Shown piece by piece: positions 2,751 to 46,757 of a DNA stretch of 64,000 nucleotides. This DNA is from an uncultured Candidatus Saccharibacteria bacterium (GTDB taxonomy: Bacteria > Patescibacteriota > UBA1384 > CAYGGE01), in the NCBI GenBank assembly GCA_964349485.1, contig CAYGGE010000001.1, forward strand, positions 69,204 to 133,203, read 5' to 3'. How positions within the stretch are numbered: position 1 is the first letter of the stretch; each line of letters begins with the position of its first letter. A model generated the notes under the pieces. It was not told the DNA's origin. It saw nothing but the letters and a program-made list of their open reading frames with translations, and did no database searches. The translations under genes were made by a program, and so were the position numbers.

Positions 2751-3224
2751 ATGCAGTATAAGGTACCGCAGCATATTGACGAGGAAGATAAGATCCTCGG
2801 TCCGTTGACGTTTATTGACTTTATCTACCTTTTAGTTGGCGGAGCGCTGATTCTGTTTTGCTTTGTCTTGTTCGATTTTGGTCTCTTTCTCTTCCTCGCT
2901 ATCCCGATCGCTCTCCTATCGGCCGCATTGGCGCTAATTAAAGTCCAAGATCAGCCCTTTAGTCGATTTCTGGTAACATTTCTGCTCTACTTACGTCAGC
3001 CAAAAAGACGGGTTTGGGCTGATCTTGAAGCCGAAGAGGATGAAACAGCCAGCCAGCTACTCGATATTGTTGCCGATCGTGAGGTCAAATTTGCGAGGAA
3101 GGCAGGTAATACAGCATCGGCAGCTACAGCCCCACCATCACCGACTGTTATTAAAACCGATGCCTCGCCGATTGTTTATCCTACCAAACCCGCTCGCAGG
3201 GTCCAAGTCACCTTAGCCTCGTAG
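2751..3224 (+). CDS. PrgI/VirB3-like small membrane protein of a type IV secretion system
   Basis: N-terminus (QYKVPQHIDEEDKILGPLTFIDFIYLLVGGALILF) followed by two hydrophobic helices resembles the PrgI/VirB3 family. It sits immediately upstream of the VirB4 ATPase. Confidence 0.55.
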   Translation: MQYKVPQHIDEEDKILGPLTFIDFIYLLVGGALILFCFVLFDFGLFLFLAIPIALLSAALALIKVQDQPFSRFLVTFLLYLRQPKRRVWADLEAEEDETASQLLDIVADREVKFARKAGNTASAATAPPSPTVIKTDASPIVYPTKPARRVQVTLAS

Positions 3225-3232
3225 GAAGTATC

Positions 3233-3862
3233 ATGACCAAGCCTTCCCCTACTCAACACTACCTCAACCTAGCCGATATAAAGGATGGTTGTTTGGTTCT
3301 GCGTAATGGCGAGGTAAGACAAGTACTGATTGTGAGCGCTCTGAACTTTGCTTTAAAGAGCGAACAGGAACAGTCAGCGATTATTTATCAGTATCAAGCC
3401 TTCCTAAACTCACTGCCCTTTTCGATCCAAATCGTCGTTCAATCACGACAGCTTGACCTAACGACCTACCTCGCCAAGCTGAAAACCCAGGCCGAGCAGA
3501 CCACTAACCTGGCTCTCAAGGCTCAGATGCTTGAGTACCTCGACTTCGTTGGCCGGCTGGTGACTTTAGGCAATATCATGGAGAAACGATTTTATGTAGT
3601 AATCCCCTACGCGACGGCGGCTGCCCGCACGAGAAGCCTGTTTGGCCAACTATTGAAACGCCAGACGGTCTTTATCGAAGAAGCAGAGTTTAAGGTCGCT
3701 AAAGCCAAGCTCGACGAACGGGCCGAATCGATTCGCCAAGGCTTGGGCAGCATGGGTCTAGTGGCTAATGTGGCGACTAAAGAAGAAGTGGCAAAGATGT
3801 TGTACCAAACCTATAACCCGATCGAAACAGGAGAGGTAGCGGTCAGTCCGCTCGCATCATGA
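3233..3862 (+). CDS. virB4: VirB4/TrbE-family conjugative ATPase, N-terminal (CagE_TrbE_VirB-like) portion. It is probably the 5' part of a single virB4 gene interrupted by a -1 frame change.
   Basis: Sequence (LADIKDGCLVLRNGEVRQVLIVSALNF ... ) resembles VirB4 N-termini. It ends in a TGA that overlaps the ATG of the next ORF (ATGA at 3859-3862). The downstream frame is already open from 3817. Confidence 0.6.
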   Translation: MTKPSPTQHYLNLADIKDGCLVLRNGEVRQVLIVSALNFALKSEQEQSAIIYQYQAFLNSLPFSIQIVVQSRQLDLTTYLAKLKTQAEQTTNLALKAQMLEYLDFVGRLVTLGNIMEKRFYVVIPYATAAARTRSLFGQLLKRQTVFIEEAEFKVAKAKLDERAESIRQGLGSMGLVANVATKEEVAKMLYQTYNPIETGEVAVSPLAS

Positions 3863-5673
3863 ACAAGACTAAACAGCCCAAACAAGTTGAGACCCCCAAA
3901 ACCAGCCCGATTACCAGTGCCATGAACGCCATCGCGCCGGCAGCTTTTCTGATGACCGCCGACCATATCCAGCTTAACAACCTGTACGCCAAGACATTAT
4001 TCGTCTATACCTATCCCCACTTCCTCGAGACCAACTGGGTCTATCCACTAATTAATTTAGATATTCCGATGGATATTTCTTTCTTTATCTATCCGATCGA
4101 CAGCAACAGTCTACTCCCCCAGCTTCGCCGGAAATCGACCCAGCTCCATGCCAGTTTTAGTATCGAGCAGGATAAGGGCTTGGTACGTAACCCAGAGCTT
4201 GAGGCCGCGATTACCGATATCGAACAGCTTCGCGACACCTTAGTTCGGGGTGAAGCTCGACTGTTTCACTTAGGATTATACTTCACAATCTATGGCAAAA
4301 CACAGGAAGCGCTCTCGTCGGGCATCAAACAGATTGAGTCGTACTTGAACGGCGCCCTTATTTACACGAAGCAGGCCTTCTTACAGATGGAACAAGGTTT
4401 TAACTCGACCCTACCGATTGGCACCGACGAACTAGCCATCACCCGCAACCTCGACACTGGCTCGCTGTCCACCACCTTCCCCTTTACCTCGGCCTCCTTG
4501 ACATCCAACGAAGGTATCCTCTACGGCATCAATCGACACAATAATTCATTGATACTGTTTGACCGATTTAACCTTGAAAATGCCAATTCGCTGATCCTCG
4601 GTAAGGCTGGAAGCGGTAAAAGTTACTTAGTCAAACTAGAGATCTTACGGACCCTCATGATGGGTACCGACGTGATCGTTATTGACCCTGAGAATGAATA
4701 TCGGGCCTTGGCTGAGACCCTAGGTGGGACATACTTGAATTTTTCGATCAATTCCCAAACCCGCATTAACCCACTCGACTTGCCACCGCCTTACGAGGGT
4801 GAAAGCGGTGAGGATATTGTTCGTACAGCGATCGTGACCGCCCGCAGTCTCATATCGCTCATGGTCAACGGCCTCTCGCCAGAAGAAGACGCGGTGCTCG
4901 ATAAAGTGTTGTTGGAAGTTTATAAACGAAAAGGGATCACCACCGATATCGCCACTCACGGCAATCCACCACCACTACTAGCAGATGTCGTCGCCCTACT
5001 CGGTCAGTCGACGGGCATGCAACAGTTGGCGGTTCGTCTTGAACGCTATACTGAAGGGACGCTGTCTGGTCTCTTTAATCAGCCGACCAATATCAATTTG
5101 AATAACGGCTTTCTGGTCTTCTCAATTCGCGACCTTGAAGAACAGCTTAGACCAATTGGTAGTTACATTATCCTGTCGTTCATCTGGAACACCATCCGCC
5201 ACGAACTACGTAAACGAATGCTGGTCATCGATGAGGCTTGGATCTTGCTTCAGCACGAGGACTCAGCCGCCTACCTTTATTCCTTCGCCAAGAGGGCTAG
5301 AAAATATTACCTTGGCATGACCACGATAAGCCAGGACGTGGAAGACTTCTTAGACTCGAAATATGGCCGATCGATCATCAATAACACATCATTACAGATA
5401 CTACTTAAACAGTCGACCTCGGCGATCGATAAGGTAGCTAACGCCTTCAACTTAACCGAAGGCGAGAAACTGTTACTCCTTGAATCAGATATCGGCGACG
5501 GGCTATTCTTCGCTGGGCAAAACCACGTGGCCATTAAAGTCATCGCTTCAGGAATTGAGGATCAGATGATTACCACCAACCCGCAAGAAATTCTGGCCGA
5601 ACGAGCGATCGCCGAGCAAGCCGCAACGCAAGAAGGTACTCAGCCAGCGCGGCCAACTGCGCCGGCCGCTTAG
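3859..5673 (+). CDS. virB4: VirB4/TrbE/PrgJ-family T4SS ATPase (C-terminal ATPase portion)
   Basis: Walker A LILGKAGSGKSY, VIDPENEY and a Walker B-like MLVIDEAWILL. Size plus the upstream N-terminal fragment totals about 810 aa, typical of VirB4. Confidence 0.8.
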   Translation: MNKTKQPKQVETPKTSPITSAMNAIAPAAFLMTADHIQLNNLYAKTLFVYTYPHFLETNWVYPLINLDIPMDISFFIYPIDSNSLLPQLRRKSTQLHASFSIEQDKGLVRNPELEAAITDIEQLRDTLVRGEARLFHLGLYFTIYGKTQEALSSGIKQIESYLNGALIYTKQAFLQMEQGFNSTLPIGTDELAITRNLDTGSLSTTFPFTSASLTSNEGILYGINRHNNSLILFDRFNLENANSLILGKAGSGKSYLVKLEILRTLMMGTDVIVIDPENEYRALAETLGGTYLNFSINSQTRINPLDLPPPYEGESGEDIVRTAIVTARSLISLMVNGLSPEEDAVLDKVLLEVYKRKGITTDIATHGNPPPLLADVVALLGQSTGMQQLAVRLERYTEGTLSGLFNQPTNINLNNGFLVFSIRDLEEQLRPIGSYIILSFIWNTIRHELRKRMLVIDEAWILLQHEDSAAYLYSFAKRARKYYLGMTTISQDVEDFLDSKYGRSIINNTSLQILLKQSTSAIDKVANAFNLTEGEKLLLLESDIGDGLFFAGQNHVAIKVIASGIEDQMITTNPQEILAERAIAEQAATQEGTQPARPTAPAA

Positions 5674-17342: not shown

Positions 17343-17349
17343 GACTATC

Positions 17350-17903: not shown

Positions 17904-17971
17904 CTTTTTCGCTCTAAAGATTTAGCGTATACTAACTAAGATCCAGCTTTAACTAATGTGGCAATATTAAC

Positions 17972-33401: not shown

Positions 33402-33416
33402 GTCAAAATAGGAGGA

Positions 33417-34394: not shown

Positions 34395-34405
34395 GAGAGG
34401 GAATT

Positions 34406-36982: not shown

Positions 36983-36992
36983 ACTGAGCCAT

Positions 36993-39368
36993 ATGAATAA
37001 AAACACCATAGCATTTACGATATTTGTTCTAGTTTTATGGTTACTACCGACGACAGCTGCAGCCCAATTTGTACCTATAGGGGAAGTGGCTTCTTTGGGG
37101 ACGGTGGCGCAGCAGGGGGAATTGCAGCAGGTGCTCGATGCTTTGGCAAGGAAGAGTGATACGACTCGAAAAAAAGCAATCATTACCCTTGGCCAACTTG
37201 AAGATAAGAGTATTGGAGCCTCTAACGCTCGTCGGCAGATTGAGGGCGAAGTTGGCAGTCTTAAGGTAGCATTTAACAAAATTCTGGCTGACTACTCAAG
37301 GCAAACCCCGCAGACTGCCTCCCTTCGTGAAGCCTATCAGGTAGCTCAGACCTACCTAAACGATATACGAGCCATGACTGACGATGCGGCTAGTCAAGCT
37401 ACCCTCGAAAAGAAACTTGATCCTTCGGCACCGACGGGCAAATATTTAGCTCATCAGAAGAAAGTACAATCCCATACTACAGCGGCTGTCGCTAAGGCTG
37501 ATGCCCGATTAACGGAGCGGGGTAAAAAGGTTACTGTTTTGCGTGATTTAGAACAAATAGTTCAGGATACTCAACGTCAAATAAATCTAGCGACAGCGAG
37601 CTATTTACTCGAAAATGCCGATGTCTTAGAGTCTGTTTTGCAACGGATCAATACCAAGGCTCTTGAAGACCTTTCGGCCGCTATGGAGAGCCGTTTCAAG
37701 GAAGCAAGTACGCGCAGTTCTGATCAAGAAAACGATCTCAATACTGAGGAAGATGGCATCTTCCAGGGAGTCAAGCAAGAGCTGAGTGACACTGTCGATC
37801 GCGCAATTAGCACTTTCGACTTGCTAGTCAAGCAAGTCCTCTCTGCAAATCTACCCAGTGCGAGTCAAGAACCGGGTGTAAACCCGCTCCTTGAAGCGAA
37901 GTTCAAAACACAGAAGCAGATGGCAGATATTCTCCAAACTTCGCTTGATCGGATCAATAAAATTAACGGCCGCACTGGCCAAAATGCTGATTATTCCGCT
38001 CTACTTAAGGAAGTCATCGCCAAGGAAACTACCAGACAGAAGCAACGCCTGACTGATACCCATAAAGAGTATGAAGGTAATTTTATAGCCGGTGACCCAA
38101 CTAGACAGCAATACACCAAGCGAAAAAGAGCTGCCCAAGAGAAGGCAGAAGGTTGTACTAGTTTCTTGTGCGATATCGGTCGCGTAGTCTCAGGAGTCGG
38201 CTCGGCATTCATTAGTGGAGCTACTGGCGGTTTAGTCAATATCCCCCCGCAAACGTTTAGTGGCGGTCTATTCGGTATCCAAGACCCGACCTATGCCGCT
38301 TCGCCCTACTCCTCAAGTTACCTTAATGGTGCTCCCAGTTTACCGTTCGTGAACGGACAGTACACCACCATGGGTGCATATGGTGGGCAAAATATCTCAA
38401 TTAATCCCCAGTGCATCATGTTTCGCGGCCAAGATAGTCAACTGTCTTTTCTGGGCGTAGCACAGGCGCAGGGCGGAGCAGAGGAATCACAGTCTAGCGG
38501 TGATCAAGGTCAGGCTCGTGGTACCGGAAGTAGCTCAGTTGATACTGAGAGGAGCACCACCAGGACTAACCAAAACCGAGGCTTCTTCGGTGAGCTATTT
38601 GGTGGTAATCTCGGCAGGGCCTTCGGCGGCTTTAGCCAAACACTCCGTAACGGCGCCTGCGGTACCTATCAAAACCAATATAGTATGGGGACAAATTCAT
38701 ACTATGGTGGTCTCCCTGTCATGCAAGCCATGGGCTTACCAGCCAATGCACAACTCAATTTGCCTCAAAACTATGTACCGGTCTTGAGCCAGCTCTTTCA
38801 GTCGCTTGGCCAACGCGATCCGCGATTGGCGCAACTTCTCCCGATCTTCGACGACGGCCAGCTCACCGGCAACGAAAGTGCCCAGCTCCAACCGTATCTT
38901 CAACAGATTGGCTTTTTCTCGAGTGCTACCAATAGTCCCTTCTGGCAAGATCCAATACGCGGCCTAGTTCTTGGTGCCTGTCACCAAGCATTCCAGCAGT
39001 CTAATCAACTGGCACTACAGATCTGCAAACAACAGTTTACTGGCGACCGATTGCTCAATACGACCGGTCGAACCAACAGTGTACCCTCTACTGTGAGTGG
39101 TGCCAACGACCAAAGCGCATTAACAAAGGTGCAAGCGATCGTGACGAACCGAATCCAAACTTTGTCTGCCGCTGGTCCCTTCCAGTGTCAATCCGCAACC
39201 AATATTGTTCAAGATGTTGATGCAATCCGTTTTGCATATCGAACGGTTCAGAGCGAGACTGTTAAATCGCAGGTAACTAATCTCTGGCATGGCATGCTCA
39301 GGCAATTCGAAGTCACTTGTCCCAATGTCAGCGTCATTCAACTTTATAGTCCCGGCTACTCACAATGA
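36993..39368 (+). CDS. Giant secreted paralog 2 (about 792 aa). It has the same conserved N-terminal half, and its C-terminus carries a Gly/Ser/Gln-rich low-complexity segment.
   Basis: ORF track 36945..39368. ATG at 36993 comes after the paralog-1 stop at 36982. Signal peptide MNKNTIAFTIFVLVLWLLPTTAAA. Confidence 0.55.
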   Translation: MNKNTIAFTIFVLVLWLLPTTAAAQFVPIGEVASLGTVAQQGELQQVLDALARKSDTTRKKAIITLGQLEDKSIGASNARRQIEGEVGSLKVAFNKILADYSRQTPQTASLREAYQVAQTYLNDIRAMTDDAASQATLEKKLDPSAPTGKYLAHQKKVQSHTTAAVAKADARLTERGKKVTVLRDLEQIVQDTQRQINLATASYLLENADVLESVLQRINTKALEDLSAAMESRFKEASTRSSDQENDLNTEEDGIFQGVKQELSDTVDRAISTFDLLVKQVLSANLPSASQEPGVNPLLEAKFKTQKQMADILQTSLDRINKINGRTGQNADYSALLKEVIAKETTRQKQRLTDTHKEYEGNFIAGDPTRQQYTKRKRAAQEKAEGCTSFLCDIGRVVSGVGSAFISGATGGLVNIPPQTFSGGLFGIQDPTYAASPYSSSYLNGAPSLPFVNGQYTTMGAYGGQNISINPQCIMFRGQDSQLSFLGVAQAQGGAEESQSSGDQGQARGTGSSSVDTERSTTRTNQNRGFFGELFGGNLGRAFGGFSQTLRNGACGTYQNQYSMGTNSYYGGLPVMQAMGLPANAQLNLPQNYVPVLSQLFQSLGQRDPRLAQLLPIFDDGQLTGNESAQLQPYLQQIGFFSSATNSPFWQDPIRGLVLGACHQAFQQSNQLALQICKQQFTGDRLLNTTGRTNSVPSTVSGANDQSALTKVQAIVTNRIQTLSAAGPFQCQSATNIVQDVDAIRFAYRTVQSETVKSQVTNLWHGMLRQFEVTCPNVSVIQLYSPGYSQ

Positions 39369-39384
39369 ATCTATAGTTGCCAAT

Positions 39385-39420
39385 CAAACAAAAAGAGGTC
39401 GATCGACCTCTTTTTGTTTG
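39385..39420. terminator. Perfect 36-bp palindrome CAAACAAAAAGAGGTCGATCGACCTCTTTTTGTTTG, a bidirectional terminator between convergent genes
   Basis: Read directly. It is flanked on both sides by A/T runs. Confidence 0.8.
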
Positions 39421-39433
39421 ATAATACAGACTG

Positions 39434-39871
39434 TTAGAAACCGTTCGAGTTAAACCCGGCGCCGAAGCCGTTACCACCTACTTGTTGGGCTTGCTCCTGA
39501 ACGAAGCCGCCAACCCAGATAATGATTGAGTAGGAAAGGATTATAACCACAATCCCGATAATCGCGTTGTAAATGGCTGTTCGGGCTTTTTTCGCCTTTT
39601 CTTCATCGGTGCTGGCTGTGATGTACTGAATACCGGCCCAGACTAGGTAAAGGATGGCGATAATTGCAGCCAGGAGAATCACTAAGTTAAAGAGGTTCAA
39701 GAAAAAGCTCACAATGTTGAAATTGCCACTAGGTTGAACCGGGAATAAAATTTGCTTCAGTCGATCAAGGTTAATGGCCTGGGGAGCGCCGCCGAATTGA
39801 GCGAAGGTCACGGTAGGGAGCGTGAGGGTAGTCAGAGCGACTCCGGCACGCAACAGGAACTTATTCATCAT
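39434..39871 (-). CDS. VirB2/TrbC-like T4SS pilin-domain protein (signal peptide, then hydrophobic helix, charged loop DEEKAKKAR, second hydrophobic helix)
   Basis: Topology read from the sequence. The charged loop flanked by two long hydrophobic segments is shared with the next three genes. Confidence 0.55.
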   Translation of the reverse strand: MMNKFLLRAGVALTTLTLPTVTFAQFGGAPQAINLDRLKQILFPVQPSGNFNIVSFFLNLFNLVILLAAIIAILYLVWAGIQYITASTDEEKAKKARTAIYNAIIGIVVIILSYSIIIWVGGFVQEQAQQVGGNGFGAGFNSNGF

Positions 39872-39940
39872 TCCTCCTTAAAGGATGTAGGACATAGGTT
39901 TTCTTAAGTATACAATACCTACACAATACTACAAGTAGGG

Positions 39941-40459
39941 CTATTTTTGGATGTCACGAACCGCTGGCAGTTGTTGAAGTGGGGCGTTCAAGTCCGTGTT
40001 GACTGGTTCATTATCCGCTTGGGGAGGAACGACCTTGAACATGTCCAGTCGCTCTTGGCAACGGTCGATGTTCTGACCTTGTGCATTACGAATCACGAAC
40101 AAACCATTAAACTTTCCAGTATTATCGAAGATTTGATACTGAACCCCGAGGAAACCTCGCACAAACATGACGAAGAAGAACAAAGAGATAAGAACCATGA
40201 GCAAGCCGATAACTCCATTACGTAAACCTTCGCGTGACTTCTTGATCGACTCTTCGTCGCCAAAGCTCCGCAGTAATCCGAAACTGTTGGCGCGTATAAC
40301 CGTCATTAGCGCCATGATACCAAACCATAACAAGCCAATGAATAGCAAGTTAAAGAGGATCGGTAAACCCTGTTGAATTGGACAGGCCCAGAGGGCAGGC
40401 TCGCCGAAGTTGGCGAGGTAGCGAGAAATGTTATCGTAAATAATCGTGCTATCAGTCAT
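39941..40459 (-). CDS. VirB2/TrbC-like pilin-domain paralog (loop GDEESIKKSRE)
   Basis: Same helix-loop-helix pilin-like arrangement. Confidence 0.5.
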   Translation of the reverse strand: MTDSTIIYDNISRYLANFGEPALWACPIQQGLPILFNLLFIGLLWFGIMALMTVIRANSFGLLRSFGDEESIKKSREGLRNGVIGLLMVLISLFFFVMFVRGFLGVQYQIFDNTGKFNGLFVIRNAQGQNIDRCQERLDMFKVVPPQADNEPVNTDLNAPLQQLPAVRDIQK

Positions 40460-41208
40460 TAGCCACCACCAGCAATGAGATAACGAATGAGCAGCGAAAA
40501 CTGATCGGAGACAAAGTAACCTAAGATCAAAATAATGATTACACTGACGGTGGCAATCAAGTAGTTCCTGGCTCGCTTGACCTTCTCTTCATCGTCCCGA
40601 GCCATGATGTACATTATCCCACTAAAAACGATGGCGAAGAGGATGAACATCGGCCAGAAGACTTGATCGAGAAAATTTAACATTACACGAACGAAGTTTT
40701 GGCGTAAGGTCGGTAGCTCTGCTCGGACGGCATTGTAACCCAGATCGGGGTCAAAGAGTTCTTTGGTTGGTTCGATTGCCACATTGATGTCTGTCTGACT
40801 GGCGATGATTTGTTCAACTTGGCCCTTACTAAAGTTTTTTACGATGGTTGCCGCATTGATTACTACCTTTTTTGGTGACTCGTCGGTTGGTACGGTAGCC
40901 AGGGCAATCGTTATGCTCTTGATCTGTGGGCCAGGGGCGGGAGTGATAGGGATGGCATTGGTTTTCACGACGCGGTTATCGGCAATCACCGCAAACGCGA
41001 CGCCGTACTTGTTGGTATCGCCAGGGATCGGTAGTAGGGTGACGGTGTAGGTTAGGGTGAGATCGTCGCCGTTAACTACTGCTTTGTTAATTTCGATTGA
41101 AGGGGAAGCGGCGGCTTCGACCGATGTGACGACGAAAAAGCTAGCGACAATTATGAGCCCAATCGCTTGATAAATTAGTCGAAAATATTTTTGTATTAAA
41201 GTAATCAT
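40459..41208 (-). CDS. Pilin-domain paralog with an N-terminal extracellular domain (C-terminus MYIMARDDEEKVKRARNYLIATVSVIIILILGYFV)
   Basis: C-terminal helix-loop-helix pilin-like domain. 1-nt and 4-nt overlaps with neighbours suggest translational coupling. Confidence 0.5.
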   Translation of the reverse strand: MITLIQKYFRLIYQAIGLIIVASFFVVTSVEAAASPSIEINKAVVNGDDLTLTYTVTLLPIPGDTNKYGVAFAVIADNRVVKTNAIPITPAPGPQIKSITIALATVPTDESPKKVVINAATIVKNFSKGQVEQIIASQTDINVAIEPTKELFDPDLGYNAVRAELPTLRQNFVRVMLNFLDQVFWPMFILFAIVFSGIMYIMARDDEEKVKRARNYLIATVSVIIILILGYFVSDQFSLLIRYLIAGGG

Positions 41209-42452
41209 CTGTTCACTCGTTGAAAGAGGTTTTCTAAGAAAGTATTGGGAACTTCTTGACTGCCGACCGTATTGGTAACATTGGTCGCGTAGTCAGTATA
41301 CTTATCTTCGCTCGTAAAGCCGATCGGTTCAAGAGCTAGGAAGTTAGCCAGGACTCTAGCGAACATGAGGAGCATGATCCCGATTATCGCTCCACCCATA
41401 ATCTCGCGCGATTTCTTCAGCTCTTCTGGGTCTGCGGAGTCCCACATAAGCTTACTGCCCGCGTAGATAGTCATGAGTACAGCCAAGATGATGCCGATCG
41501 GCAGGGCAAAGCTGACAATATTGGATGCATATTCGCCGATGTTGCTGACTAAGCCAAATTCAGTTGGTGCGACCACGGTGTCAATGTGGCGGGTGGTGCC
41601 ACTCGTCACTGTTCCATCAGTGAGGGTAGCCGAGACGGTATACTCTGTAGCCAGATCACCTTTCGATTTGACATCAGCAAGGTGATAGATGTGGTATTTG
41701 GCCTCGGTGAGGGACAAACTGGTGCGATCGTTTGGATCATTGATTTCTAGAGGTATAGCGTCGGGAGTAGAGGGCTGAATTGTGTATTTGGTTACGTTAT
41801 CGACTGCCTTCCAGACAAGGTCGGCTTTGTAAGTGTCATTTACTTTGGTGATACGGAGCGTTGGATTGATCTCCGGCTTTATTAGACCTTGGCTTGTCCG
41901 ACCGATGGCTGTCGCTGTCTTCGCCCCTTCTTTGAGGGCAGCTGTGTCGGCCGGTTTTGCTGTAGGGATGGCAGTCGATGCGGGCGGTGCTTTTATGCCT
42001 GCGCCAAGAATCTGTTCGCCTGTTCCGTTTAATGAGGTGGTAGAGACAATTTCATTCCCGCCCTTTACCAATTCAAGTGTTCCCTTTGCCGACTTAGCTT
42101 TCTTGATCGTCAAGTCATTGGCCAGGGCGAGAGTATAAAATCCATTAGTCACGGTCTGGGTCAACTGTTCTTCTTTACTACCTAGAGTAGTGTAGACCAG
42201 GTTATTACTATCTGTTGTCGCCATACTAAAACGGAGCTGATAACTATCGGCATAGGATTTGGCTTGAGCAGAATATTGAAAGCGAATCGTCTTTAGACCG
42301 TCATAGGTTACACTATGGAGCGTTACTTTGTCCGAAGTGGTCGGTGCTGCCATGGCCGCTTCACTACTCAATAAGACGAGCCGGCTAGTAAACAAAAAGG
42401 CTATGACAATGAGCCATCGATATTTAAAAAGTTGGTTCAAAACATAGCTCAT
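41205..42452 (-). CDS. Pilin-domain paralog with a large N-terminal extracellular domain (C-terminus AGSKLMWDSADPEELKKSREIMGGAIIGIMLLMF)
   Basis: Same C-terminal module. The 415 aa protein has a signal-anchor at its N-terminus. Confidence 0.5.
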   Translation of the reverse strand: MSYVLNQLFKYRWLIVIAFLFTSRLVLLSSEAAMAAPTTSDKVTLHSVTYDGLKTIRFQYSAQAKSYADSYQLRFSMATTDSNNLVYTTLGSKEEQLTQTVTNGFYTLALANDLTIKKAKSAKGTLELVKGGNEIVSTTSLNGTGEQILGAGIKAPPASTAIPTAKPADTAALKEGAKTATAIGRTSQGLIKPEINPTLRITKVNDTYKADLVWKAVDNVTKYTIQPSTPDAIPLEINDPNDRTSLSLTEAKYHIYHLADVKSKGDLATEYTVSATLTDGTVTSGTTRHIDTVVAPTEFGLVSNIGEYASNIVSFALPIGIILAVLMTIYAGSKLMWDSADPEELKKSREIMGGAIIGIMLLMFARVLANFLALEPIGFTSEDKYTDYATNVTNTVGSQEVPNTFLENLFQRVNR

Positions 42453-43819
42453 CGCAAAATCCCAGTTATGGCTGTCGCCGCTTGGGTTAAGATAGTCGCG
42501 ACTGGTTGACCATCTTCAGTTGCCCCCTTAATGAGTTGACTGAATATCTGATCGACAATTCGAGGCGATGGCCCCTTGTACCAATTTGTCGTGTTGGGGT
42601 TGATGATGGCGGTTATGGTTTCGTCCTGCGATTCTTCGGCAACACTGGCATTGGCGTAAATCTGGGGCGGAATCTGTGAAGTCTGCTTCGCATAGACACT
42701 AGTGATATCGATATTGCTGGTTGAGTATTGGATAAACTGCCAGGCGATCTGTTCTCGCTTGGCTCGCTGTTCTTTGGTGAGCCTCGAAGCTGACTTACTA
42801 ACCACGAGGCTTCGGTATTTGGCTAACTGGACCTCTTTACTTACTTCCGCTGGTGTATCGCCTACCGGGATTTTCTTCAGACCACGCTGAGGCACGCCGG
42901 AAACAGAGTAGTTGAGCTTGCTATTCAAGAGCTTCATCTGCGGGTAAAGCGACAGATAGTTAATCATCATCGACAAATTACCGCTAGCAAAAGCCTGGGT
43001 CGAATAAGGTTGGTTCGCGTCCCAACTTTGGTAAGCTGATGCGGGGTCGGCAAAGCTATCAAAGAAGGTGACGGCTTCTTGACCGAGGTAACGATATTCG
43101 CCACTGTCCGGATCTTGGATGAATAGATCAAAAGTGGCTTGTTTGTGGGCGGGATCAACCATCTGAACACCGAGTTGCATCATGACGAGCTGTAATATAT
43201 GGCTAGCCCGATCGAGATTGCTTGCCGTACCCATGGCGAAACCTGGTCGAACAATCGTTTGGTCGACTCGGAGTGTCGTTAGCTTAGCGATAGCGGCTAA
43301 TTCCTCCCAAGTTTTGGGGGGTTTCTCGATCCCTGCCTGTTTCATGTGATCAACATTCATAAATAGCACGAGCGGGTCGATAGTGATCGGCATGCCATAG
43401 AGGGTGTCGTCGATAATCATCTGATTGGCGATTGCTCTTGCGTAAGTCTTTTTGAAGATCTCCTGCTCGCCTTTACTTGGAAAGACAAAACCGGCCAGTT
43501 TATCTTTATGACGAGCTAGCTCATCGTCTCGAATTTCCCAGATGTCTGGTCCCTTACCGGCCGCTAAGGCGTTAATTACTGCGGTTTCATAGTCATCGGT
43601 CGGCTCAAAGAGACGCGTCTCGATGTTAATAGTCGGTACATCTTTTTCGTAAGTTGCAATGAGCTTATCGAAAACCTTATCGTCGCCTGACTGCTTGACG
43701 TGCCAATAAGTTAAGGTTTGTTTGGCCTGATTAACAGCCTGTTGATCATTACGTAAACCACAGCCAGTCAAAAAGAGTGGTGTAATGGCGAGGAGAGCGA
43801 GGGATGTGAACTTATTCAT
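42449..43819 (-). CDS. Extracellular solute-binding lipoprotein (ABC-transporter SBP family 1-like), orphan
   Basis: Lipobox LTGCG. SBP_bac_1-like features (TLTYWHV..., GPDIWEIRDDELARHKDKLAGFVFP). There is no permease or ATPase nearby. Confidence 0.55.
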   Translation of the reverse strand: MNKFTSLALLAITPLFLTGCGLRNDQQAVNQAKQTLTYWHVKQSGDDKVFDKLIATYEKDVPTINIETRLFEPTDDYETAVINALAAGKGPDIWEIRDDELARHKDKLAGFVFPSKGEQEIFKKTYARAIANQMIIDDTLYGMPITIDPLVLFMNVDHMKQAGIEKPPKTWEELAAIAKLTTLRVDQTIVRPGFAMGTASNLDRASHILQLVMMQLGVQMVDPAHKQATFDLFIQDPDSGEYRYLGQEAVTFFDSFADPASAYQSWDANQPYSTQAFASGNLSMMINYLSLYPQMKLLNSKLNYSVSGVPQRGLKKIPVGDTPAEVSKEVQLAKYRSLVVSKSASRLTKEQRAKREQIAWQFIQYSTSNIDITSVYAKQTSQIPPQIYANASVAEESQDETITAIINPNTTNWYKGPSPRIVDQIFSQLIKGATEDGQPVATILTQAATAITGILR

Positions 43820-45182
43820 AGGCCTCCCCTCGTAGGATGTGGGTACTTTGCTTAGTTAGGCGGTCGATCACAACTGATAATGGCTCGCCAGAAAGTGTCG
43901 CATCGATAGCTTGGTGGAAGACGGTTTTACTGGCCTTGATGTCGTTACGATACCAGAGGCTAGCCACCGCGGGCGTTCCTTTGGGGGTGTCAATCTGGGC
44001 CAAAAATGGAGCGAGGAAGGGACTAAAACTCGAGCTTTGCAGGAGATCACGACGAGCCGGTGGTCGACCAGAGGCTAGGGCATAGCGCAGGTTATTGTCT
44101 TTATTGGTTAAGAACTGGATGAAATTCCAAGCCTCGACCGGGTGTTTACTGACTGATGGCACGCCGACAACTAAGGGCGAAGCAAGGGTGATGGGGTCAC
44201 TCGTGTCGCGAATTTGCGGCATGATACCAGTCGCCAGCGGGAAAGTCGGATTAGTTTCGGTGATATCGCGAATTCGGTAACTGTAGTCAATGAGGAGCGG
44301 CAGCTTTCCAGCCATAAACAATTCAAAATCTTGTGATTGATCCTTTGTCCAAGCATAGTTTTCCTTACTTGGAGAGGCAAAGCTGGTATAGAAATCGAGA
44401 GCGGCTAATCCTGGCTGAAAGGCCTCGCCCGTCGCTTTCGAAATGGTTTCATTGTAACGTGCTTCTGTTTTCTGGCTGTCGGTCATGGGGGTATGGTTTT
44501 GCAGAAGTAAGGTCGCCAAAATCTCATCGGCACGACTGACGTTGGTGCTCGAACCAATGGCTAGGCCAGGCTTGGTGAGATTCACCCCATTGCGCTCGCG
44601 TAGTTTATTGGAAGCGGCGATCGTATCGTCCCATGTTTGGGGCAAGCGGGGAATCGACTTTTGTTGTAGTAGGCTAGTGTTGGCAAACAAGCCCAAAGTA
44701 TCAGCGGCGATCGGAAGAGTATATACTGCACCTTTTACGATATTTTCTGTTTGGGTGACCGTAGTATAGCGTTCGTTGAAGAGCGTCACATTGGGTGAGG
44801 GCTTAATTTTTTTGGCGAATAACCGTTTTTTTGTGGGCACAGCGTCTTGGCTAGCCAACAGTCCCTCGGGGACTATAGCGAGTTTATCGTGATGCTTGGG
44901 TAACCAATCTTGAGGAATGAGCCAAATGTCGGGTCCGTCTTGGCTAGCTAAGAGGTTTAGTGAGGCGAACTCGTAAAGTGAGGCCTCTTTTTGGGTGTAA
45001 TTGACGGTGACTCCCGGGTGAGTGGCTTCATAGCTATCGATAATCGGCTGGAAGAGTGAGACATCATCGTAAACGCCCCAAAAATTTAAGGCTACTGGTC
45101 TAGCATCGTCAGTTGTTAGTGGCGTTGACTGCTTCGGGACGTCAATAAATTGCCAAACCAAATAAATACCTGAAAGGACCAT
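43812..45182 (-). CDS. Extracellular solute-binding protein paralog (SBP family 1-like), orphan
   Basis: LNFWGVYDD, GPDIWLIPQDWLPKHHDKL. Overlaps the next gene by 8 nt. Confidence 0.5.
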   Translation of the reverse strand: MVLSGIYLVWQFIDVPKQSTPLTTDDARPVALNFWGVYDDVSLFQPIIDSYEATHPGVTVNYTQKEASLYEFASLNLLASQDGPDIWLIPQDWLPKHHDKLAIVPEGLLASQDAVPTKKRLFAKKIKPSPNVTLFNERYTTVTQTENIVKGAVYTLPIAADTLGLFANTSLLQQKSIPRLPQTWDDTIAASNKLRERNGVNLTKPGLAIGSSTNVSRADEILATLLLQNHTPMTDSQKTEARYNETISKATGEAFQPGLAALDFYTSFASPSKENYAWTKDQSQDFELFMAGKLPLLIDYSYRIRDITETNPTFPLATGIMPQIRDTSDPITLASPLVVGVPSVSKHPVEAWNFIQFLTNKDNNLRYALASGRPPARRDLLQSSSFSPFLAPFLAQIDTPKGTPAVASLWYRNDIKASKTVFHQAIDATLSGEPLSVVIDRLTKQSTHILRGEAYE

Positions 45183-45240
45183 CAGGAAGATAAGGATCCC
45201 TAAGGCAATACGTAGACCGATGCTCCCCTCCTCGTTCCCC

Positions 45241-46113
45241 TTAACTGACTGTTTTCAAAAATTCAAGCATTTCGCCTCTCGTGTCGTCACGCTGTAAGGC
45301 GAAATAGACGTTAGCCTTCAAGAAACCAATTTTACTGCCGATGTCCCAGTAGTGACCGGTCACTATCTTGCCGTAGACCGTTTCCTCTTGAAGTAACTTG
45401 GCGATTGCATCGGCTAACCAAATTTCATTCGATTTACCTGGCTTGGTTTCGACCAGGAGCTCCATGATACGTGGAGTGAATAAGTAACCGCCAACCGAGA
45501 ACAGATTGCTCGGCGCTTCTTCCGGGGCCGGCTTCTCGATCATGGTATCGATGGCATAGACAGAATCGCTGACGGCTCGGCCGCCGACGCAACCGTAACG
45601 TTTGCAATGGGCTTCGAAAGTTTCCTCGCTACTCTGGATACAGGCTAAGACTGAGCCACCGTAAGTATTGTAGGTATCGATCATCTGTTTAACTCGAGGT
45701 TCATTGCCCTCAAAGATATCATCACCCCAGGCGACGACGAACGGTTCATTGCCAACCAGATCCTTAGCCATCAAAATAGCATGACCATTACCGAGTGGCT
45801 CATGCTGGTAGACGACAGAAATCTTCACTCGCTTCTCAATCGCCCGAATTTCGTCTAGCAAATCTTGCTTACCGCTCTCAATCAGTCGCTTTTCGAGGTC
45901 GTGATTGGGCTTAAAGTAGTCTTCAATCGCCTGTTTACTGGGATGATTGACCAAGATGACTTCTTCGATACCTGAATCGGCCGCTTCCTCAATGAGGTAG
46001 TGGATAACTGGTCGATCGACAATTGGCACCATCTCTTTAGGGATGGTTTTAGTGGCCGGGAGCATACGGGTGCCGAAGCCGGCGACCGGGATGACCATTT
46101 TGGTGATAGGCAT
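45241..46113 (-). CDS. galU: UTP--glucose-1-phosphate uridylyltransferase
   Basis: KMVIPVAGFGTRMLPATKTIPKEMVPIVDRPVIHYLIEEA matches the GalU N-terminal motif. Confidence 0.85.
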   Translation of the reverse strand: MPITKMVIPVAGFGTRMLPATKTIPKEMVPIVDRPVIHYLIEEAADSGIEEVILVNHPSKQAIEDYFKPNHDLEKRLIESGKQDLLDEIRAIEKRVKISVVYQHEPLGNGHAILMAKDLVGNEPFVVAWGDDIFEGNEPRVKQMIDTYNTYGGSVLACIQSSEETFEAHCKRYGCVGGRAVSDSVYAIDTMIEKPAPEEAPSNLFSVGGYLFTPRIMELLVETKPGKSNEIWLADAIAKLLQEETVYGKIVTGHYWDIGSKIGFLKANVYFALQRDDTRGEMLEFLKTVS

Positions 46114-46124
46114 GTGGTCCTTTT

Positions 46125-46210
46125 GGTTGTCTAGTTATCTCGTTGTCTGGTTCGCTTCGCTTATCTGGTTGTGAACTAGAAAACTAGACAACCAGAAAAC
46201 GAGATAACTA
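46125..46210. repeat. Copy C of the intergenic repeat element. It has 21-bp imperfect terminal inverted repeats (TAGTTATCTCGTTgTCTGGTT / AACCAGAaAACGAGATAACTA), starts 12 bp upstream of the galU start and overlaps the hsp20 stop.
   Basis: Aligned by eye with copies A and B. The core is TTCGCTTCGCT. Confidence 0.7.
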
Positions 46211-46591
46211 ATCCTGGCTGACGACGGTGATCGTCCTAGCTCGGCTTTTTTCGAGTTTGGGGATACGAACTGTTAAAACACCGTTTTTGAGGCTGGCCTC
46301 AGTCTTATCGGCATCGACGGCGACAGGCAGAATATAGCTTCGAGAAAAACTGCCCCAATAACATTCTTGACAGAAATAATTATCTCGACTCTGGGCTTGA
46401 TCATCTTGGCGCTGGCCTTTCACTGTGACCGTATCGTCGGTGACCGCTACCTCAAGATCTTCCGGCTGAACACCAGCAATTGGCGCCTTCAAGATGATAT
46501 CGTCATCGGTTTGATAAACGTCAATGGCCAGCTGACCTTCATAGTCATCAGCCAGCCAATCGGAATCTTGAGGGGTTAGGTTGTCAGCCAT
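46208..46591 (-). CDS. Hsp20/alpha-crystallin family small heat shock protein
   Basis: 127 aa ORF whose alpha-crystallin-like segment LAIDVYQTDDDIILKAPIAGVQPEDLEVAVTDDTVTVKG...GVLTVRIPK fits the Hsp20 family. Confidence 0.85.
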   Translation of the reverse strand: MADNLTPQDSDWLADDYEGQLAIDVYQTDDDIILKAPIAGVQPEDLEVAVTDDTVTVKGQRQDDQAQSRDNYFCQECYWGSFSRSYILPVAVDADKTEASLKNGVLTVRIPKLEKSRARTITVVSQD

Positions 46592-46757
46592 CGTTTACTC
46601 CTCCAGAGTAGATTGCTAATTTCTCATTAATGACGAAAATCCAAAGTAAAACAACATCCTTAAGCCATTAGAAATTAGTGATTAATCATTCTCATTGTAC
46701 CTTCTGGTTTGATCTCCTGTCAATTCTGGAGTAGGCTCTTAGTGAGGAGCGCACAAG

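What the first reader, a model, noticed from the sequence alone, without database searches (positions are those of the whole stretch)
39434..42452. Four tandem VirB2/TrbC-like pilin-domain paralogs with progressively larger N-terminal ectodomains
Four consecutive minus-strand genes (145, 172, 249 and 415 aa) share a C-terminal module. It consists of a long hydrophobic helix, a short charged loop (DEEKAKKAR, DEESIKKSRE, DDEEKVKRARN, DPEELKKSRE) and a second hydrophobic helix. This is the topology of T4SS pilins. The two smaller proteins are essentially bare pilins, while the larger two fuse the pilin module to extracellular domains of about 150 and about 330 aa. The arrangement suggests a major pilin plus minor or tip pilins carrying adhesin-like domains. 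It lies far from the VirB4 locus.
Basis: partly seen in the sequence, partly recalled or inferred. Interest (0 to 1): 0.75.

Follow-up and report, generated by a model that had tools for sequence, protein, structure and literature searches.

The report
Sugar-binder-linked T4SS pilin gene array
Four neighbouring genes of an uncultured ultrasmall (Patescibacteria) bacterium encode diverged copies of a secretion-system pilin, a kind of gene array already described; what looks new is that they sit in one operon with sugar-binding proteins, a pairing that recurs across this bacterial group and may hint at what its essential but unexplained type IV secretion system does.

Summary
Four minus-strand ORFs lie at exactly the stated coordinates and share a helix / charged-loop / helix module. 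They are the only 4 of 678 window ORFs that carry it.

- **Family:** Pfam PF18895 (T4SS_pilin, the VirB2-like pilin of Patescibacteria) is the best hit for all four. It scores above threshold for the 145- and 415-aa proteins.
- **Organism:** a Berkelbacteria-like CPR bacterium. Its PrgI/VirB4 locus lies beside dnaA, about 34 kb away.
- **Already known:** tandem arrays of divergent VirB2-like pilins in Patescibacteria are published. One array is essential in Southlakia.
- **Corrections:** the 172-aa protein has no signal peptide, and its extension is C-terminal. The 415-aa ectodomain is about 265 aa, made of two Ig/Fn3-like domains.
- **Four conserved types:** the four genes are positional orthogroups (A, B, C, D) kept in order in relatives. 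D is the most conserved and has the only strong ribosome-binding site. A and B occur fused elsewhere.
- **Sugar-binder link:** the array is translationally coupled to two membrane-tethered sugar-type solute-binding proteins. This coupling is general: 15 of 18 arrays have such a gene upstream, and 57 of 60 homologues of the binding protein have a pilin gene downstream. None has VirB4 nearby.

Filament formation and the major/minor division of labour remain inferred.

The parts
39383..39422 (-). Intrinsic terminator hairpin flanked by an A-run and a U-run. It lies between the converging pilin D gene and the 807-aa ORF and is probably bidirectional.
   Evidence: Sequence read. RNA fold -28.3 kcal/mol, z = -7.7 against shuffles.
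39434..39871 (-). Pilin type D (145 aa, probably 144 aa from the ATG at 39868). It has a signal peptide ending TFA|Q and a hairpin module at residues ~52-121 (nt 39509-39718). It is the most conserved member and the candidate major subunit.
   Evidence: PF18895 at 43.6 bits, E = 3e-11. 25 homologues, all carrying PF18895. 51-60% identical to orthologues, against 32-42% for A, B and C. AlphaFold2 helices 53-85 and 90-132. Consensus Shine-Dalgarno AAGGAGG at 39873-39879.
39941..40459 (-). Pilin type C (172 aa). It has no signal peptide, a conserved PALWxCPIQQG(L/V)P motif before helix 1, a hairpin at residues ~26-105 (nt 40145-40384), and a 68-aa C-terminal tail carrying the second of exactly two cysteines (C26, C134).
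   Evidence: PF18895 is the best hit but below cut-off (15.5 bits). BLASTP to p145 gives 7e-8. The orthologue L007 9372-9902 carries PF18895. The motif and cysteine pair are conserved in the six complete orthologues compared (window, L005-L007, L009); L008, cut at the contig end just before the first Cys, keeps PIQQG and the tail Cys.
40459..41208 (-). Pilin type B (249 aa). It has a signal peptide (VEA|A), a beta-rich ectodomain of about 140 aa, a conserved FDPDLGY...LP motif, and a hairpin at residues ~166-234 (nt 40507-40713).
   Evidence: PF18895 is the best hit but below cut-off (18.2 bits). BLASTP to p145 gives 1e-8. The p145-family profile gives 2e-8. Orthologues are aligned. The ectodomain fold was not modelled.
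41205..42452 (-). Pilin type A (415 aa). Layout: signal peptide 1-~35; beta domain 1 at residues 43-144 (nt 42021-42326); disordered Pro/Ala/Thr linker 145-190; Fn3-like domain 198-288 (nt 41589-41861); conserved APTEFG beta-hairpin; helical hairpin 305-372 (module nt 41328-41576); 40-aa tail.
   Evidence: PF18895 at 34.1 bits. AlphaFold2 pLDDT is 81-93 for the Fn3-like domain and the hairpin, and 35-70 for domain 1. Foldseek matches tandem Fn3/Ig receptors at E = 5e-4 to 1e-3. In the exhaustive HMMER search all 268 relatives match through residues ~171-390 and none matches residues 1-110.
42449..43819 (-). Solute-binding protein 2, a lipoprotein (lipobox LTGC) of the carbohydrate-type family 1. 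Its stop overlaps the pilin A start by 4 nt (ATGA).
   Evidence: SBP_bac_8 and SBP_bac_1 at E = 5e-22 and 5e-20. The closest solved structures are sugar-binding proteins. The lipobox is conserved in 4 of 4 orthologues.
43812..45221 (-). Solute-binding protein 1. The annotated ATG is at 45182. The true start is probably a non-ATG codon near 45221 behind GAGGAGG, which would add an N-terminal membrane anchor like that of its orthologues. It overlaps the start of solute-binding protein 2 by 8 nt.
   Evidence: SBP_bac_8 and SBP_bac_1 at E = 4e-24 and 2e-21. The in-frame upstream translation IGLRIALGILIFLMVLSGIYLVW resembles the orthologue anchors.
45241..46591 (-). Conserved upstream neighbours: a GalU-like nucleotidyltransferase (45241-46113) and HSP20 (46208-46591). 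A divergent ComF-like phosphoribosyltransferase follows at 46758-47417 (+). These are context, not shown to belong to the system.
   Evidence: Pfam. GalU and/or HSP20 lie upstream of the solute-binding gene and array in L005-L007, L010, L011, L015, L016, L020, L027, L028 and L034. In Southlakia, Hsp20 and a ComF-like gene flank the essential pilin array.
2751..5673 (+). Core of the presumed partner T4SS: PrgI/VirB3-like (2751-3224), TraC-like (3233-3862) and VirB4-like ATPase (3859-5673). A NlpC/P60-CHAP hydrolase lies at 8649-9866 and dnaA at 15406-16932. No pilin gene is present in this cluster.
   Evidence: Pfam. No pilin-module ORF was found in the window outside 39.4-42.5 kb, nor in the 7.25 kb upstream of the window (L043).

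Best explanation
The region is the pilin array of the chromosomal, monoderm-type type IV secretion system of a Berkelbacteria-like Patescibacteria bacterium. It is one operon: two membrane-tethered carbohydrate-type solute-binding proteins, then four non-redundant PF18895 (VirB2-like) hairpin proteins A, B, C and D.

**Shown**
- Homology of the four proteins to the T4SS_pilin family.
- Conserved A-B-C-D order in relatives.
- Overlapping start and stop codons from the first solute-binding gene through to C.
- A separate strong ribosome-binding site for D, and a terminator after D.
- Ig/Fn3-like ectodomains on A.
- Reciprocal coupling between this solute-binding subfamily and pilin arrays.

**Inferred**
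1. All four proteins insert into the membrane with both termini outside and the Lys/Arg-rich loop inside. A, B and D lose a signal peptide at an AxA site.
2. D, highly translated and most conserved, is the main building block.
3. A, B and C are made at lower, coupled levels. They form a heteromeric cap or base that carries the exposed domains, playing the part VirB5 or minor pilins play elsewhere. A contacts B.
4. The VirB4/VirB6 machine encoded about 34 kb away, beside dnaA, extracts and assembles them into a short pilus or a wall-spanning conduit toward the host cell.
5. The co-made solute-binding proteins bind host glycan or sugar at that interface.
For: **Family**
- PF18895 is the top hit for all four proteins, and two score above the cut-off.
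- All 23 members of the p145 family match PF18895, and 10 of 23 also match TrbC/VirB2.
- A pilin next to a solute-binding gene (L046) passes both the PF18895 cut-off (60.3 bits) and the TrbC cut-off (32.3 against 27.9).

**Paralogy and exclusivity:**

**Organism and array habit**
- The nearest genome is a Candidatus Berkelbacteria MAG, with an 88% identical D.
- The literature reports 441 VirB2 arrays of 2-11 genes in Patescibacteria (PMC12102498).

**Non-redundancy**
- The four orthogroups keep their order in L005-L007. The order is partly kept in L009, L027 and L034.
- All six pilins of the Southlakia array are essential.

**A-B contact:** A and B are fused in L006 and in P0030, P0035, P0049, P0050 and P0074.

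**D as the major subunit**
- D is 51-60% identical to its orthologues, against 32-42% for A, B and C.
- D has AAGGAGG and its own 69-nt spacer, whereas the A, B and C starts overlap the upstream stops.

**Link to the T4SS:** the same Hsp20 and ComF-like neighbours flank the T4SS-embedded Southlakia array. Array and T4SS both lie within about 25 kb of dnaA.

**Ectodomains:**

**Solute-binding coupling:**
Against: - No T4SS pilus has been seen in any Patescibacteria. The reviews say only 'potential to elaborate' (PMC12857230).
- The array is not next to VirB4, either here or in any of the 118 related loci, within 6-8 kb.
- Direct comparison with Agrobacterium VirB2 is not significant (hhalign probability 1.8%).
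- The window proteins score below the TrbC cut-off.
- Fold searches cannot tell a pilin hairpin from any other helical hairpin.
- About a third of the representative relatives concatenate 2-7 hairpins in one polypeptide. That is easier to reconcile with a resident membrane complex than with an extruded filament.
- p249 and p172 are below the Pfam threshold on their own.
Confidence: 0.55

Rival explanations
1. T4SS-independent surface complex. The hairpin modules are resident membrane anchors that oligomerise in the membrane and display Ig/Fn3, enzyme-like and other ectodomains. Together with the tethered solute-binding proteins they would form a host-glycan receptor or a non-canonical uptake device. 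'Pilin' would then be only a family name.
For: - The solute-binding/array coupling is reciprocal and strong: 15 of 18 and 57 of 60.
- No VirB4 or PrgI homologue lies within 6-8 kb in any related locus.
- The T4SS cluster of this genome carries no pilin.
- 48 of 149 representative relatives have 2-7 hairpins in one chain.
- Ectodomains are interchangeable and can be N- or C-terminal: cupredoxin-like in P0023, an HEVAH zincin-like domain in L073.
- The loops are Lys/Arg-rich, as in stable membrane proteins.
Against: - Genuine VirB2 pilins are also integral membrane hairpins before assembly, so the topology does not discriminate.
- In Southlakia the homologous array sits inside the T4SS cluster and is essential, like the T4SS itself.
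- Shared Hsp20 and ComF-like neighbours suggest the two kinds of array are positional homologues.
- No permease or ATPase accompanies the solute-binding proteins.
Confidence: 0.27
2. Interchangeable variant pilins. The four genes would be alternative major subunits used for antigenic or host-range variation, as proposed for VirB2 paralogues in Bartonella and Anaplasma and suggested for Patescibacteria arrays.
For: - Paralogues are only about 25-34% identical.
- The A ectodomain is hypervariable among relatives, at 237-518 aa, and residues 1-110 of p415 have no relative anywhere.
- The idea is raised in PMC12102498.
Against: - Each paralogue has its own conserved orthogroup, diagnostic motif and fixed position across genomes, so these are not recent duplicates.
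- A-B fusions imply the two are used simultaneously.
- All six pilins are individually essential in Southlakia.
- Only D has a strong ribosome-binding site.
Confidence: 0.08
3. No real relationship. The four would be generic two-helix membrane proteins whose similarity reflects hydrophobic composition only.
For: - p249 and p172 are below the Pfam cut-off.
- p249 against p415 is not significant by BLASTP.
- Weak hits to many unrelated membrane families appear.
Against: - Composition-corrected E-values to p145 are 1e-7 to 1e-8.
- Only these four of 678 window ORFs hit the profile.
- Loop motifs are conserved, and orthologues pass Pfam.
Confidence: 0.02

Closest known systems
Essential VirB2-like pilin array of Candidatus Southlakia epibionticum ML1 (SEML1_0014-0019; Wang et al. 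2023, PMC10633639) and the 441 Patescibacteria VirB2 arrays of Quinonero-Coronel et al. 2025 (PMC12102498)
   Same: - Same Pfam family (PF18895).
- Tandem, highly divergent paralogues.
- The most canonical, TrbC-like member comes last in the array.
- Chromosomal position near dnaA.
- Hsp20 and a ComF-like phosphoribosyltransferase as neighbours.
- Monoderm-type T4SS (PrgI, VirB4, VirB6-like) with no relaxase seen.
   Different: - Here the array is about 34 kb from VirB4 rather than inside the T4SS cluster.
- It is preceded by, and translationally coupled to, two sugar-type solute-binding proteins.
- Two members carry ectodomains of about 140 and 265 aa, whereas the Southlakia genes are 312-417 bp (about 100-140 aa) where listed, apart from SEML1_0015, whose pilin module ends near residue 180.
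- No essentiality data exist for this lineage.
VirB2/TrbC pilins and the VirB5 tip protein of Gram-negative T4SS (Agrobacterium T-pilus, PDB 8cue/8exh)
   Same: - Signal peptide cleaved at Ala-x-Ala|Gln.
- Two hydrophobic helices joined by a short basic loop.
- Small size of the D member.
- A proposed split into a major subunit and an exposed minor component.
   Different: - The sequence link is only sub-threshold for the window proteins (PF04956 at 14-16 bits; hhalign not significant).
- The organism is monoderm.
- There is no VirB5 homologue. Instead, extra domains are fused to pilin modules.
- The genes are not adjacent to virB3/virB4.
Minor (pseudo)pilin sets of type II secretion and type IV pili (for example GspH-I-J-K with GspG) - an analogy only
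   Same: One abundant conserved subunit plus several low-level, co-transcribed, non-redundant paralogues. The largest of these carries an extra domain.
   Different: The fold and assembly machinery are unrelated. No class III prepilin signal (G|FTLIE) is present in any of the four proteins.
Mbov_0395 family pilin-like conjugal transfer protein of Mycoplasma ICEs (NCBIfam NF045849)
   Same: It is the best NCBIfam hit for all four proteins: a small two-helix protein of a wall-less or monoderm T4SS.
   Different: All scores are below the curated cut-off (32.9, 20.9, 14.6 and 13.2 bits against 40).
Binding-protein-dependent carbohydrate ABC importers (MalE/family-1 solute-binding proteins)
   Same: The two upstream genes belong to solute-binding family 1. 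Their closest solved relatives bind oligosaccharides.
   Different: No permease or ATPase gene lies in the operon, either here or in relatives. The invariable downstream partners are pilin-module genes instead.

Membership tests
Pfam PF18895 T4SS_pilin (Patescibacteria VirB2-like pilins) | Profile match at or above the gathering score (26.6 bits): the 145-aa and 415-aa proteins | tested here: met
   43.6 bits (E = 3e-11) and 34.1 bits (E = 3e-8). The precomputed PF18895 assignment on the same genes appears.
Pfam PF18895 T4SS_pilin (Patescibacteria VirB2-like pilins) | Profile match at or above the gathering score: the 249-aa and 172-aa proteins | tested here: inconclusive
   PF18895 is the best hit for both, but at 18.2 and 15.5 bits, below 26.6. 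Membership rests on three indirect lines: BLASTP to p145 (1e-8 and 7e-8); the p145-family profile (2e-8 and 1e-4); and orthologues that match the profile, namely L007 type C carrying PF18895 and L007 type B at 4e-15.
Pfam PF18895 T4SS_pilin (Patescibacteria VirB2-like pilins) | Two hydrophobic helices joined by a short charged loop, preceded by a Sec signal peptide | tested here: met
   Hydropathy. AlphaFold2 helices. The loops hold 4-6 Lys/Arg. N-terminal hydrophobic segments with AxA sites are present in A, B and D, judged by inspection because no signal-peptide predictor was available. Type C lacks a signal peptide.
Pfam PF18895 T4SS_pilin (Patescibacteria VirB2-like pilins) | Occurs as tandem arrays of divergent paralogues in Patescibacteria genomes | tested here: met
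   The nearest genome is a Berkelbacteria MAG. Arrays of 3-8 genes occur in 22 related loci. Literature: PMC12102498.
Pfam PF18895 T4SS_pilin (Patescibacteria VirB2-like pilins) | Encoded next to virB4 or within the T4SS cluster. This is frequent but not universal: 1135 of 1948 assemblies. | tested here: not met
   VirB4-like gene at 3859-5673 and array at 39434-42452. No pilin module lies in or upstream of the T4SS cluster.
Pfam PF18895 T4SS_pilin (Patescibacteria VirB2-like pilins) | Polymerises into an extracellular filament in a VirB4-dependent way | not testable with these tools
   Only monomer prediction was available. No filament is reported for any Patescibacteria T4SS in the papers read.
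TrbC/VirB2 pilin (Pfam PF04956) | Profile match at or above the gathering score (27.9 bits) | tested here: not met
   14.0 bits (p145) and 15.7 bits (p415), with no hit for the other two. Bridging evidence only: 10 of 23 p145-family members match at E <= 0.01, the best at 7e-6. One pilin beside a solute-binding gene passes both models.
TrbC/VirB2 pilin (Pfam PF04956) | Detectable profile similarity to Agrobacterium VirB2, or fold similarity to solved T4SS pilins | tested here: inconclusive
Type IV pilin / T2SS pseudopilin | Class III signal peptide with a G|(F/M)xxxE prepilin-peptidase site | tested here: not met
   The motif is absent from the first 40 residues of all four proteins.
Binding-protein-dependent ABC importer | Solute-binding protein encoded together with a permease and an ATPase | tested here: not met
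   Solute-binding proteins are present. No BPD-type permease or importer ATPase is adjacent, either here or in L005-L007.
NCBIfam NF045849 Mbov_0395 pilin-like conjugal transfer protein | Score at or above the curated cut-off (40 bits) | tested here: not met
   32.9, 13.2, 14.6 and 20.9 bits.

The most novel reading that the evidence does not exclude
The cassette of a solute-binding protein followed by a pilin array may be a distinct, widely conserved Patescibacteria organelle. In this reading VirB2-like hairpins, including concatenated 'polypilins' and versions fused to Ig/Fn3, cupredoxin-like or peptidase-like domains, build a surface filament or pore. That structure would work with a dedicated sugar-binding protein to recognise host cell-wall carbohydrate or take it up. 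The enigmatic, essential Patescibacteria T4SS would then act, at least partly, in nutrient acquisition rather than export, or the cassette would work without VirB4 altogether.
Probability: 0.17. Interest if true: 0.85.

Novelty: new variant of a known kind. Interest (0 to 1): 0.55.

Why it matters
- **The open question.** The T4SS of Patescibacteria is essential in the one species tested. Its role is described as 'completely unknown' (PMC11665869), and its pilins are the feature that sets it apart from every other monoderm T4SS.
- **The new clue.** In a broad set of lineages the pilin array is wired to a dedicated carbohydrate-type binding protein rather than to VirB4. The array consists of fixed, non-redundant subunit types, and their exposed domains are swapped freely.
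- **What can now be tested.** Which ligand the binding protein recognises, whether it docks on subunits A or B, and whether D alone forms the shaft.
- **The limit.** The pilin array itself is an instance of something already published.

Tried and rejected
- **Word-indexed homologue search.** Searching with p415, and with an alignment of type-A orthologues, returned only p415 itself plus one orthologue, because low-complexity words filled the candidate list. The exhaustive HMMER search was needed.
- **Sequence searches against solved structures.** The p145-family profile found nothing. A control showed that VirB2 itself finds no other solved pilin.
- **hhalign of the family against Agrobacterium VirB2:** not significant.
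- **PHROGs:** nothing meaningful, so no holin or phage assignment.
- **Second pilin array near VirB4.** None was found in the window or in the 7.25 kb upstream. One look-up with ORF 1924-2655 failed because that exact product is not on record.
- **Metagenome scan.** A 7-sequence alignment worked.
- **SEML1_0023.** I asked whether this Southlakia gene, which lies next to a lone pilin, is a solute-binding protein. It is an STT3-like glycosyltransferase.
- **Rejected readings.** Type IV pilins, because there is no prepilin motif. A complete ABC importer, because there is no permease or ATPase.

Full report
**1. The observation**

The four minus-strand ORFs exist exactly as described: 39434-39871 (145 aa), 39941-40459 (172 aa), 40459-41208 (249 aa) and 41205-42452 (415 aa). 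A four-way alignment puts the quoted charged loops in one column block between two hydrophobic helices. Hydropathy finds the helix pairs at p145 63-81/103-121, p172 34-52/82-100, p249 183-201/216-234 and p415 312-330/356-374.

The similarity is not compositional noise.
- With composition-based statistics, p145 matches p172, p249 and p415 at E = 7e-8, 1e-8 and 1e-7. p172 matches p415 at 3e-5. Only p249 against p415 is not significant.
- A profile built from p145 homologues hits these four and nothing else among 678 window ORFs of at least 40 aa. The next best has E = 0.94. Orthogroup-specific profiles give the same answer.

Four corrections apply.
- p172 has no signal peptide, and its extra sequence is a 68-aa C-terminal tail.
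- The p415 ectodomain is about 265 aa.
- p145 probably starts at the second ATG, giving 144 aa as the gene callers chose.
- The VirB4-like gene is at 3859-5673, so the 34-kb separation is real.

**2. What the proteins are**

Pfam PF18895 (T4SS_pilin) is the best family for all four. It scores above the gathering threshold of 26.6 bits for p145 (43.6 bits) and p415 (34.1 bits), and below it for p249 (18.2) and p172 (15.5). TrbC/VirB2 (PF04956) appears only weakly, at 14-16 bits. NCBIfam's best hit for all four is the Mbov_0395 pilin-like conjugal transfer family, always below its cut-off. PHROGs gives nothing.

The two sub-threshold members are tied in by their match to p145 and by their orthologues. 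The type-C orthologue in L007 carries PF18895, and the type-B orthologue matches the p145 profile at 4e-15.

The link from PF18895 to classical VirB2/TrbC is indirect.
- All 23 members of the p145 family match PF18895, and 10 of 23 also match PF04956, the best at 7e-6.
- One related pilin passes both models: 60.3 bits for PF18895 and 32.3 bits for PF04956.

**3. Structure**

AlphaFold2 on p145 with 23 sequences (mean pLDDT 70.6) gives a signal-peptide helix, a short helix and a long hairpin at 53-85/90-132.

For p415 (mean pLDDT 65.5, 28 sequences) the model shows:
- a signal helix at 2-32;
- a low-confidence beta domain at 43-144;
- a disordered Pro/Ala/Thr linker at 145-190;
- a confident beta-sandwich at 198-288 (pLDDT 81-92);
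- a small beta-hairpin formed by the conserved APTEFG motif;
- the helical hairpin at 305-337/342-372 (pLDDT about 90).

Foldseek against the PDB returns tandem Fn3/Ig receptor ectodomains: interferon-gamma receptor at 5e-4 and the Ihog FNIII domains at 1.3e-3. 'Adhesin-like' is therefore reasonable for p415. The p249 ectodomain was not modelled.

**4. Organism and context**

The nearest genome hit is a Candidatus Berkelbacteria MAG whose D orthologue is 88% identical. More distant relatives are labelled Saccharibacteria, Doudnabacteria, Peribacteria and Gracilibacteria.

The window holds a monoderm-type T4SS beside the replication genes:
- PrgI at 2751-3224, a TraC-like gene at 3233-3862 and VirB4-like at 3859-5673;
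- a NlpC/P60-CHAP hydrolase at 8649-9866;
- recF, dnaN and dnaA at 12856-16932.

That cluster contains no pilin gene, and neither does the 7.25 kb upstream of the window.

**5. Operon anatomy**

Upstream of p415, on the same strand, lie two family-1 solute-binding proteins. Their closest solved relatives bind oligosaccharides. The downstream one (solute-binding protein 2) has a conserved LTGC lipobox. The upstream one (solute-binding protein 1) most likely starts at a non-ATG codon behind GAGGAGG and carries a membrane anchor like its orthologues.

Starts and stops overlap along the chain:

| Junction | Overlap |
|---|---|
| solute-binding protein 1 / 2 | 8 nt |
| solute-binding protein 2 / A | 4 nt (ATGA) |
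| A / B | 4 nt (ATGA) |
| B / C | 1 nt |

D stands apart. It follows a 69-nt spacer with a consensus AAGGAGG and is followed by a strong hairpin terminator (-28.3 kcal/mol, z = -7.7).

**6. Four fixed subunit types**

In three related metagenomic loci the same order recurs: HSP20, GalU-like, two solute-binding proteins, four pilin genes, then converging large ORFs.

Each position has its own signature.
- **A:** V(R/A)APTEFG..N(I/L)GEYA...ALP, preceded by an Fn3-like domain.
- **B:** FDPDLGY...LP.
- **C:** no signal peptide, PALWxCPIQQG(L/V)P, and exactly two cysteines, one before helix 1 and one in the tail. Both are present in the window protein and in the five orthologues read through both positions (L005-L007, L009); L008 is cut just before the first Cys.
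- **D:** a signal peptide ending AxAQ and a near-invariant core.

Identity to orthologues is 51-60% for D, against 38-42% for the A module, 33-35% for B and 32-40% for C. The A-B-C-D order is also seen, partly, in L009 (B-C-D at a contig end), L027 (A-B-C-D) and L034 (A-B-D). In L027 and L034 the large ectodomain sits on B instead of A.

A and B are fused into one four-helix protein in L006 and in representatives P0030, P0035, P0049, P0050 and P0074. This argues that A and B are neighbours in one assembly.

**7. The wider family**

Exhaustive HMMER with p415 against 1.84 billion representative proteins finds 268 relatives at E <= 1e-3 and 28 at E <= 1e-10. Every match runs through the C-terminal module, and some also include the Fn3-like domain. 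Nothing matches residues 1-110.

Of 149 representatives:
- 33 of 101 single-module proteins have N-terminal extensions of at least 100 aa;
- 48 carry 2-7 modules in one chain, for example P0053 and P0069.

Other fusions include a C-terminal cupredoxin-like domain in P0023. There is also a C-terminal domain with an HEVAH motif and a sub-threshold zinc-peptidase hit in L073. Ectodomain-bearing pilin modules are therefore common in this family, not peculiar to this window.

**8. The coupling to solute-binding proteins is general and reciprocal**

- **From pilins to binding proteins.** Among genome loci found with the p145 family, 15 of 18 arrays of at least 3 pilin genes that have upstream sequence available have a homologous solute-binding gene directly upstream. 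Among loci with only 1-2 pilin genes the figure is 0 of 18. GalU and/or HSP20 often precede it.
- **From binding proteins to pilins.** I took 80 metagenomic loci chosen only by similarity to the solute-binding protein (29-35% identity). Of the 60 with at least 1.5 kb of downstream sequence, 57 have a pilin-module ORF directly downstream, and 27 have three or more.
- **Independent check.** Pfam confirms PF18895 in 9 of 10 sampled first-downstream ORFs.
- **No VirB4 nearby.** No locus of either set has a VirB4, PrgI or NlpC homologue within 6-8 kb.
- **Caveats.** Some metagenomic loci are near-duplicates, and both samples are biased toward relatives of this cassette.

I found no mention of this coupling in the searchable literature.

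**9. What is already known**

- McLean et al. 2020 described a 'secreted array' beside the Saccharibacteria T4SS.
- Wang et al. 2023 showed that the six pilins of Southlakia epibionticum (SEML1_0014-0019) lie inside the T4SS cluster and are essential.
- Quinonero-Coronel et al. 2025 catalogued 441 arrays of 2-11 VirB2-like genes with about 25% mean identity. They noted that the pilin gene is near virB4 in only 1135 of 1948 assemblies.
- A 2025 review calls these the only monoderm T4SSs with the 'potential to elaborate conjugative pili'.
- A 2024 perspective states that the role of the Saccharibacteria T4SS is completely unknown and raises nutrient uptake as a possibility.

In Southlakia the array is flanked by Hsp20 and a ComF-like phosphoribosyltransferase. 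The same two genes flank the cassette here, at 46208-46591 and 46758-47417. This suggests that the solute-binding-linked and T4SS-embedded arrays are positional homologues separated by rearrangement.

**10. Mechanism and rivals**

The best-supported reading (confidence about 0.55) is as follows.
- The cassette supplies the extracellular part of the T4SS.
- D is the abundant shaft or conduit subunit.
- A, B and C are stoichiometrically coupled minor subunits that carry exposed domains, a role that VirB5 or minor pilins play elsewhere.
- The two tethered binding proteins act at the same host interface.

The homology, the gene order, the fusions, the coupling signals and the domain folds are shown. 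Topology, signal-peptide cleavage, relative abundance, filament formation, VirB4 dependence and the ligand are inferred.

The main rival (about 0.27) is a T4SS-independent membrane or surface complex that works with the binding proteins. It is favoured by the absence of VirB4 linkage and by the multi-hairpin fusions. It is weakened by the Southlakia data and the shared neighbours.

Interchangeable antigenic variants (about 0.08) are disfavoured by the fixed orthogroups, the A-B fusions and the individual essentiality in Southlakia. Chance similarity is excluded.

**11. Verdict**

The finding is real and its family assignment is right, but the kind of object is already published. What goes beyond the literature I could search is fourfold:
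- the fixed four-type architecture;
- the ectodomain and enzyme-like fusions;
- the concatenated 'polypilins';
- above all, the tight reciprocal coupling to a dedicated sugar-type binding protein, away from VirB4.

I rate it a new variant of a known kind, with moderate interest (0.55).

Noticed in passing
window 39941-40459 (-), residues C26 and C134; orthologues in L005-L009: Type C pilins have exactly two cysteines. One sits just before helix 1, in the CPIQQG motif. The other sits about 30 residues after helix 2. Both are conserved in every orthologue read through both positions (window, L005-L007, L009); L008 is truncated just before the first. A disulfide between them would staple the two extracellular ends together, recalling the head-to-tail cyclisation of TrbC and VirB2 pilins. 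This is speculative.
   Followed up: partly
window 32916-39368 (+): ORFs 32916-33401, 33417-34394, 34352-36982, 36945-39368: Four secreted-looking ORFs converge on the pilin array and have no Pfam or NCBIfam hit. The 876-aa and 807-aa proteins are paralogues of each other. The set is conserved next to the array in L005-L009 but not in more distant loci. Its function and any link to the array are unknown.
   Followed up: partly
P0053 (606 aa), P0069 (552 aa), P0061, P0056: These are 'polypilins': single polypeptides with 4-7 tandem PF18895-like hairpin modules joined by short linkers. About a third of the representative relatives have at least 2 modules.
   Followed up: partly
L006 7605-8681; P0030 (970 aa), P0035, P0050, P0074: Type A and type B pilins are fused into one four-helix protein in several lineages. 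In P0030 a further ectodomain lies between the two modules.
   Followed up: partly
L073 7187-8575; L049 5254-6228; P0023 / L006 9082-9843: Some pilin modules carry C-terminal ectodomains. One has an HEVAH motif and a sub-threshold zinc-metallopeptidase hit. One has a Cys-rich domain of unknown type. One has a cupredoxin-like domain (E = 1.3e-5). Many pilins next to solute-binding genes also have Cys-rich N-terminal segments (GIVPCG...CTVCHF).
   Followed up: partly
window 45183-45233 (-): The upstream solute-binding gene seems to start at a non-ATG codon (ATC near 45221, or ATT) five nt after GAGGAGG. The annotated ATG at 45182 would cut off a membrane anchor that all the orthologues have.
   Followed up: partly
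window 46208-47417; Southlakia SEML1_0020-0021: HSP20 and a ComF-like phosphoribosyltransferase with a double zinc ribbon flank the pilin array both here and in Southlakia, where Hsp20 is essential. This neighbourhood is conserved across CPR classes. Its meaning is unknown.
   Followed up: partly
L043 1-5802 (upstream of window position 1): Two giant ORFs (1372 and 1366 aa) with no Pfam hit lie immediately upstream of the T4SS cluster. A 947-aa ORF with no hit (window 9733-12576) closes the cluster and could be VirB6-like.
   Followed up: no
window 16933-17971: There is an intergenic gap of about 1 kb between dnaA and yidC. The minimum of the cumulative GC skew falls between about 12 and 20 kb, so this is a likely position for the replication origin. 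T4SS and pilin cassette would both then lie within about 25 kb of it.
   Followed up: no
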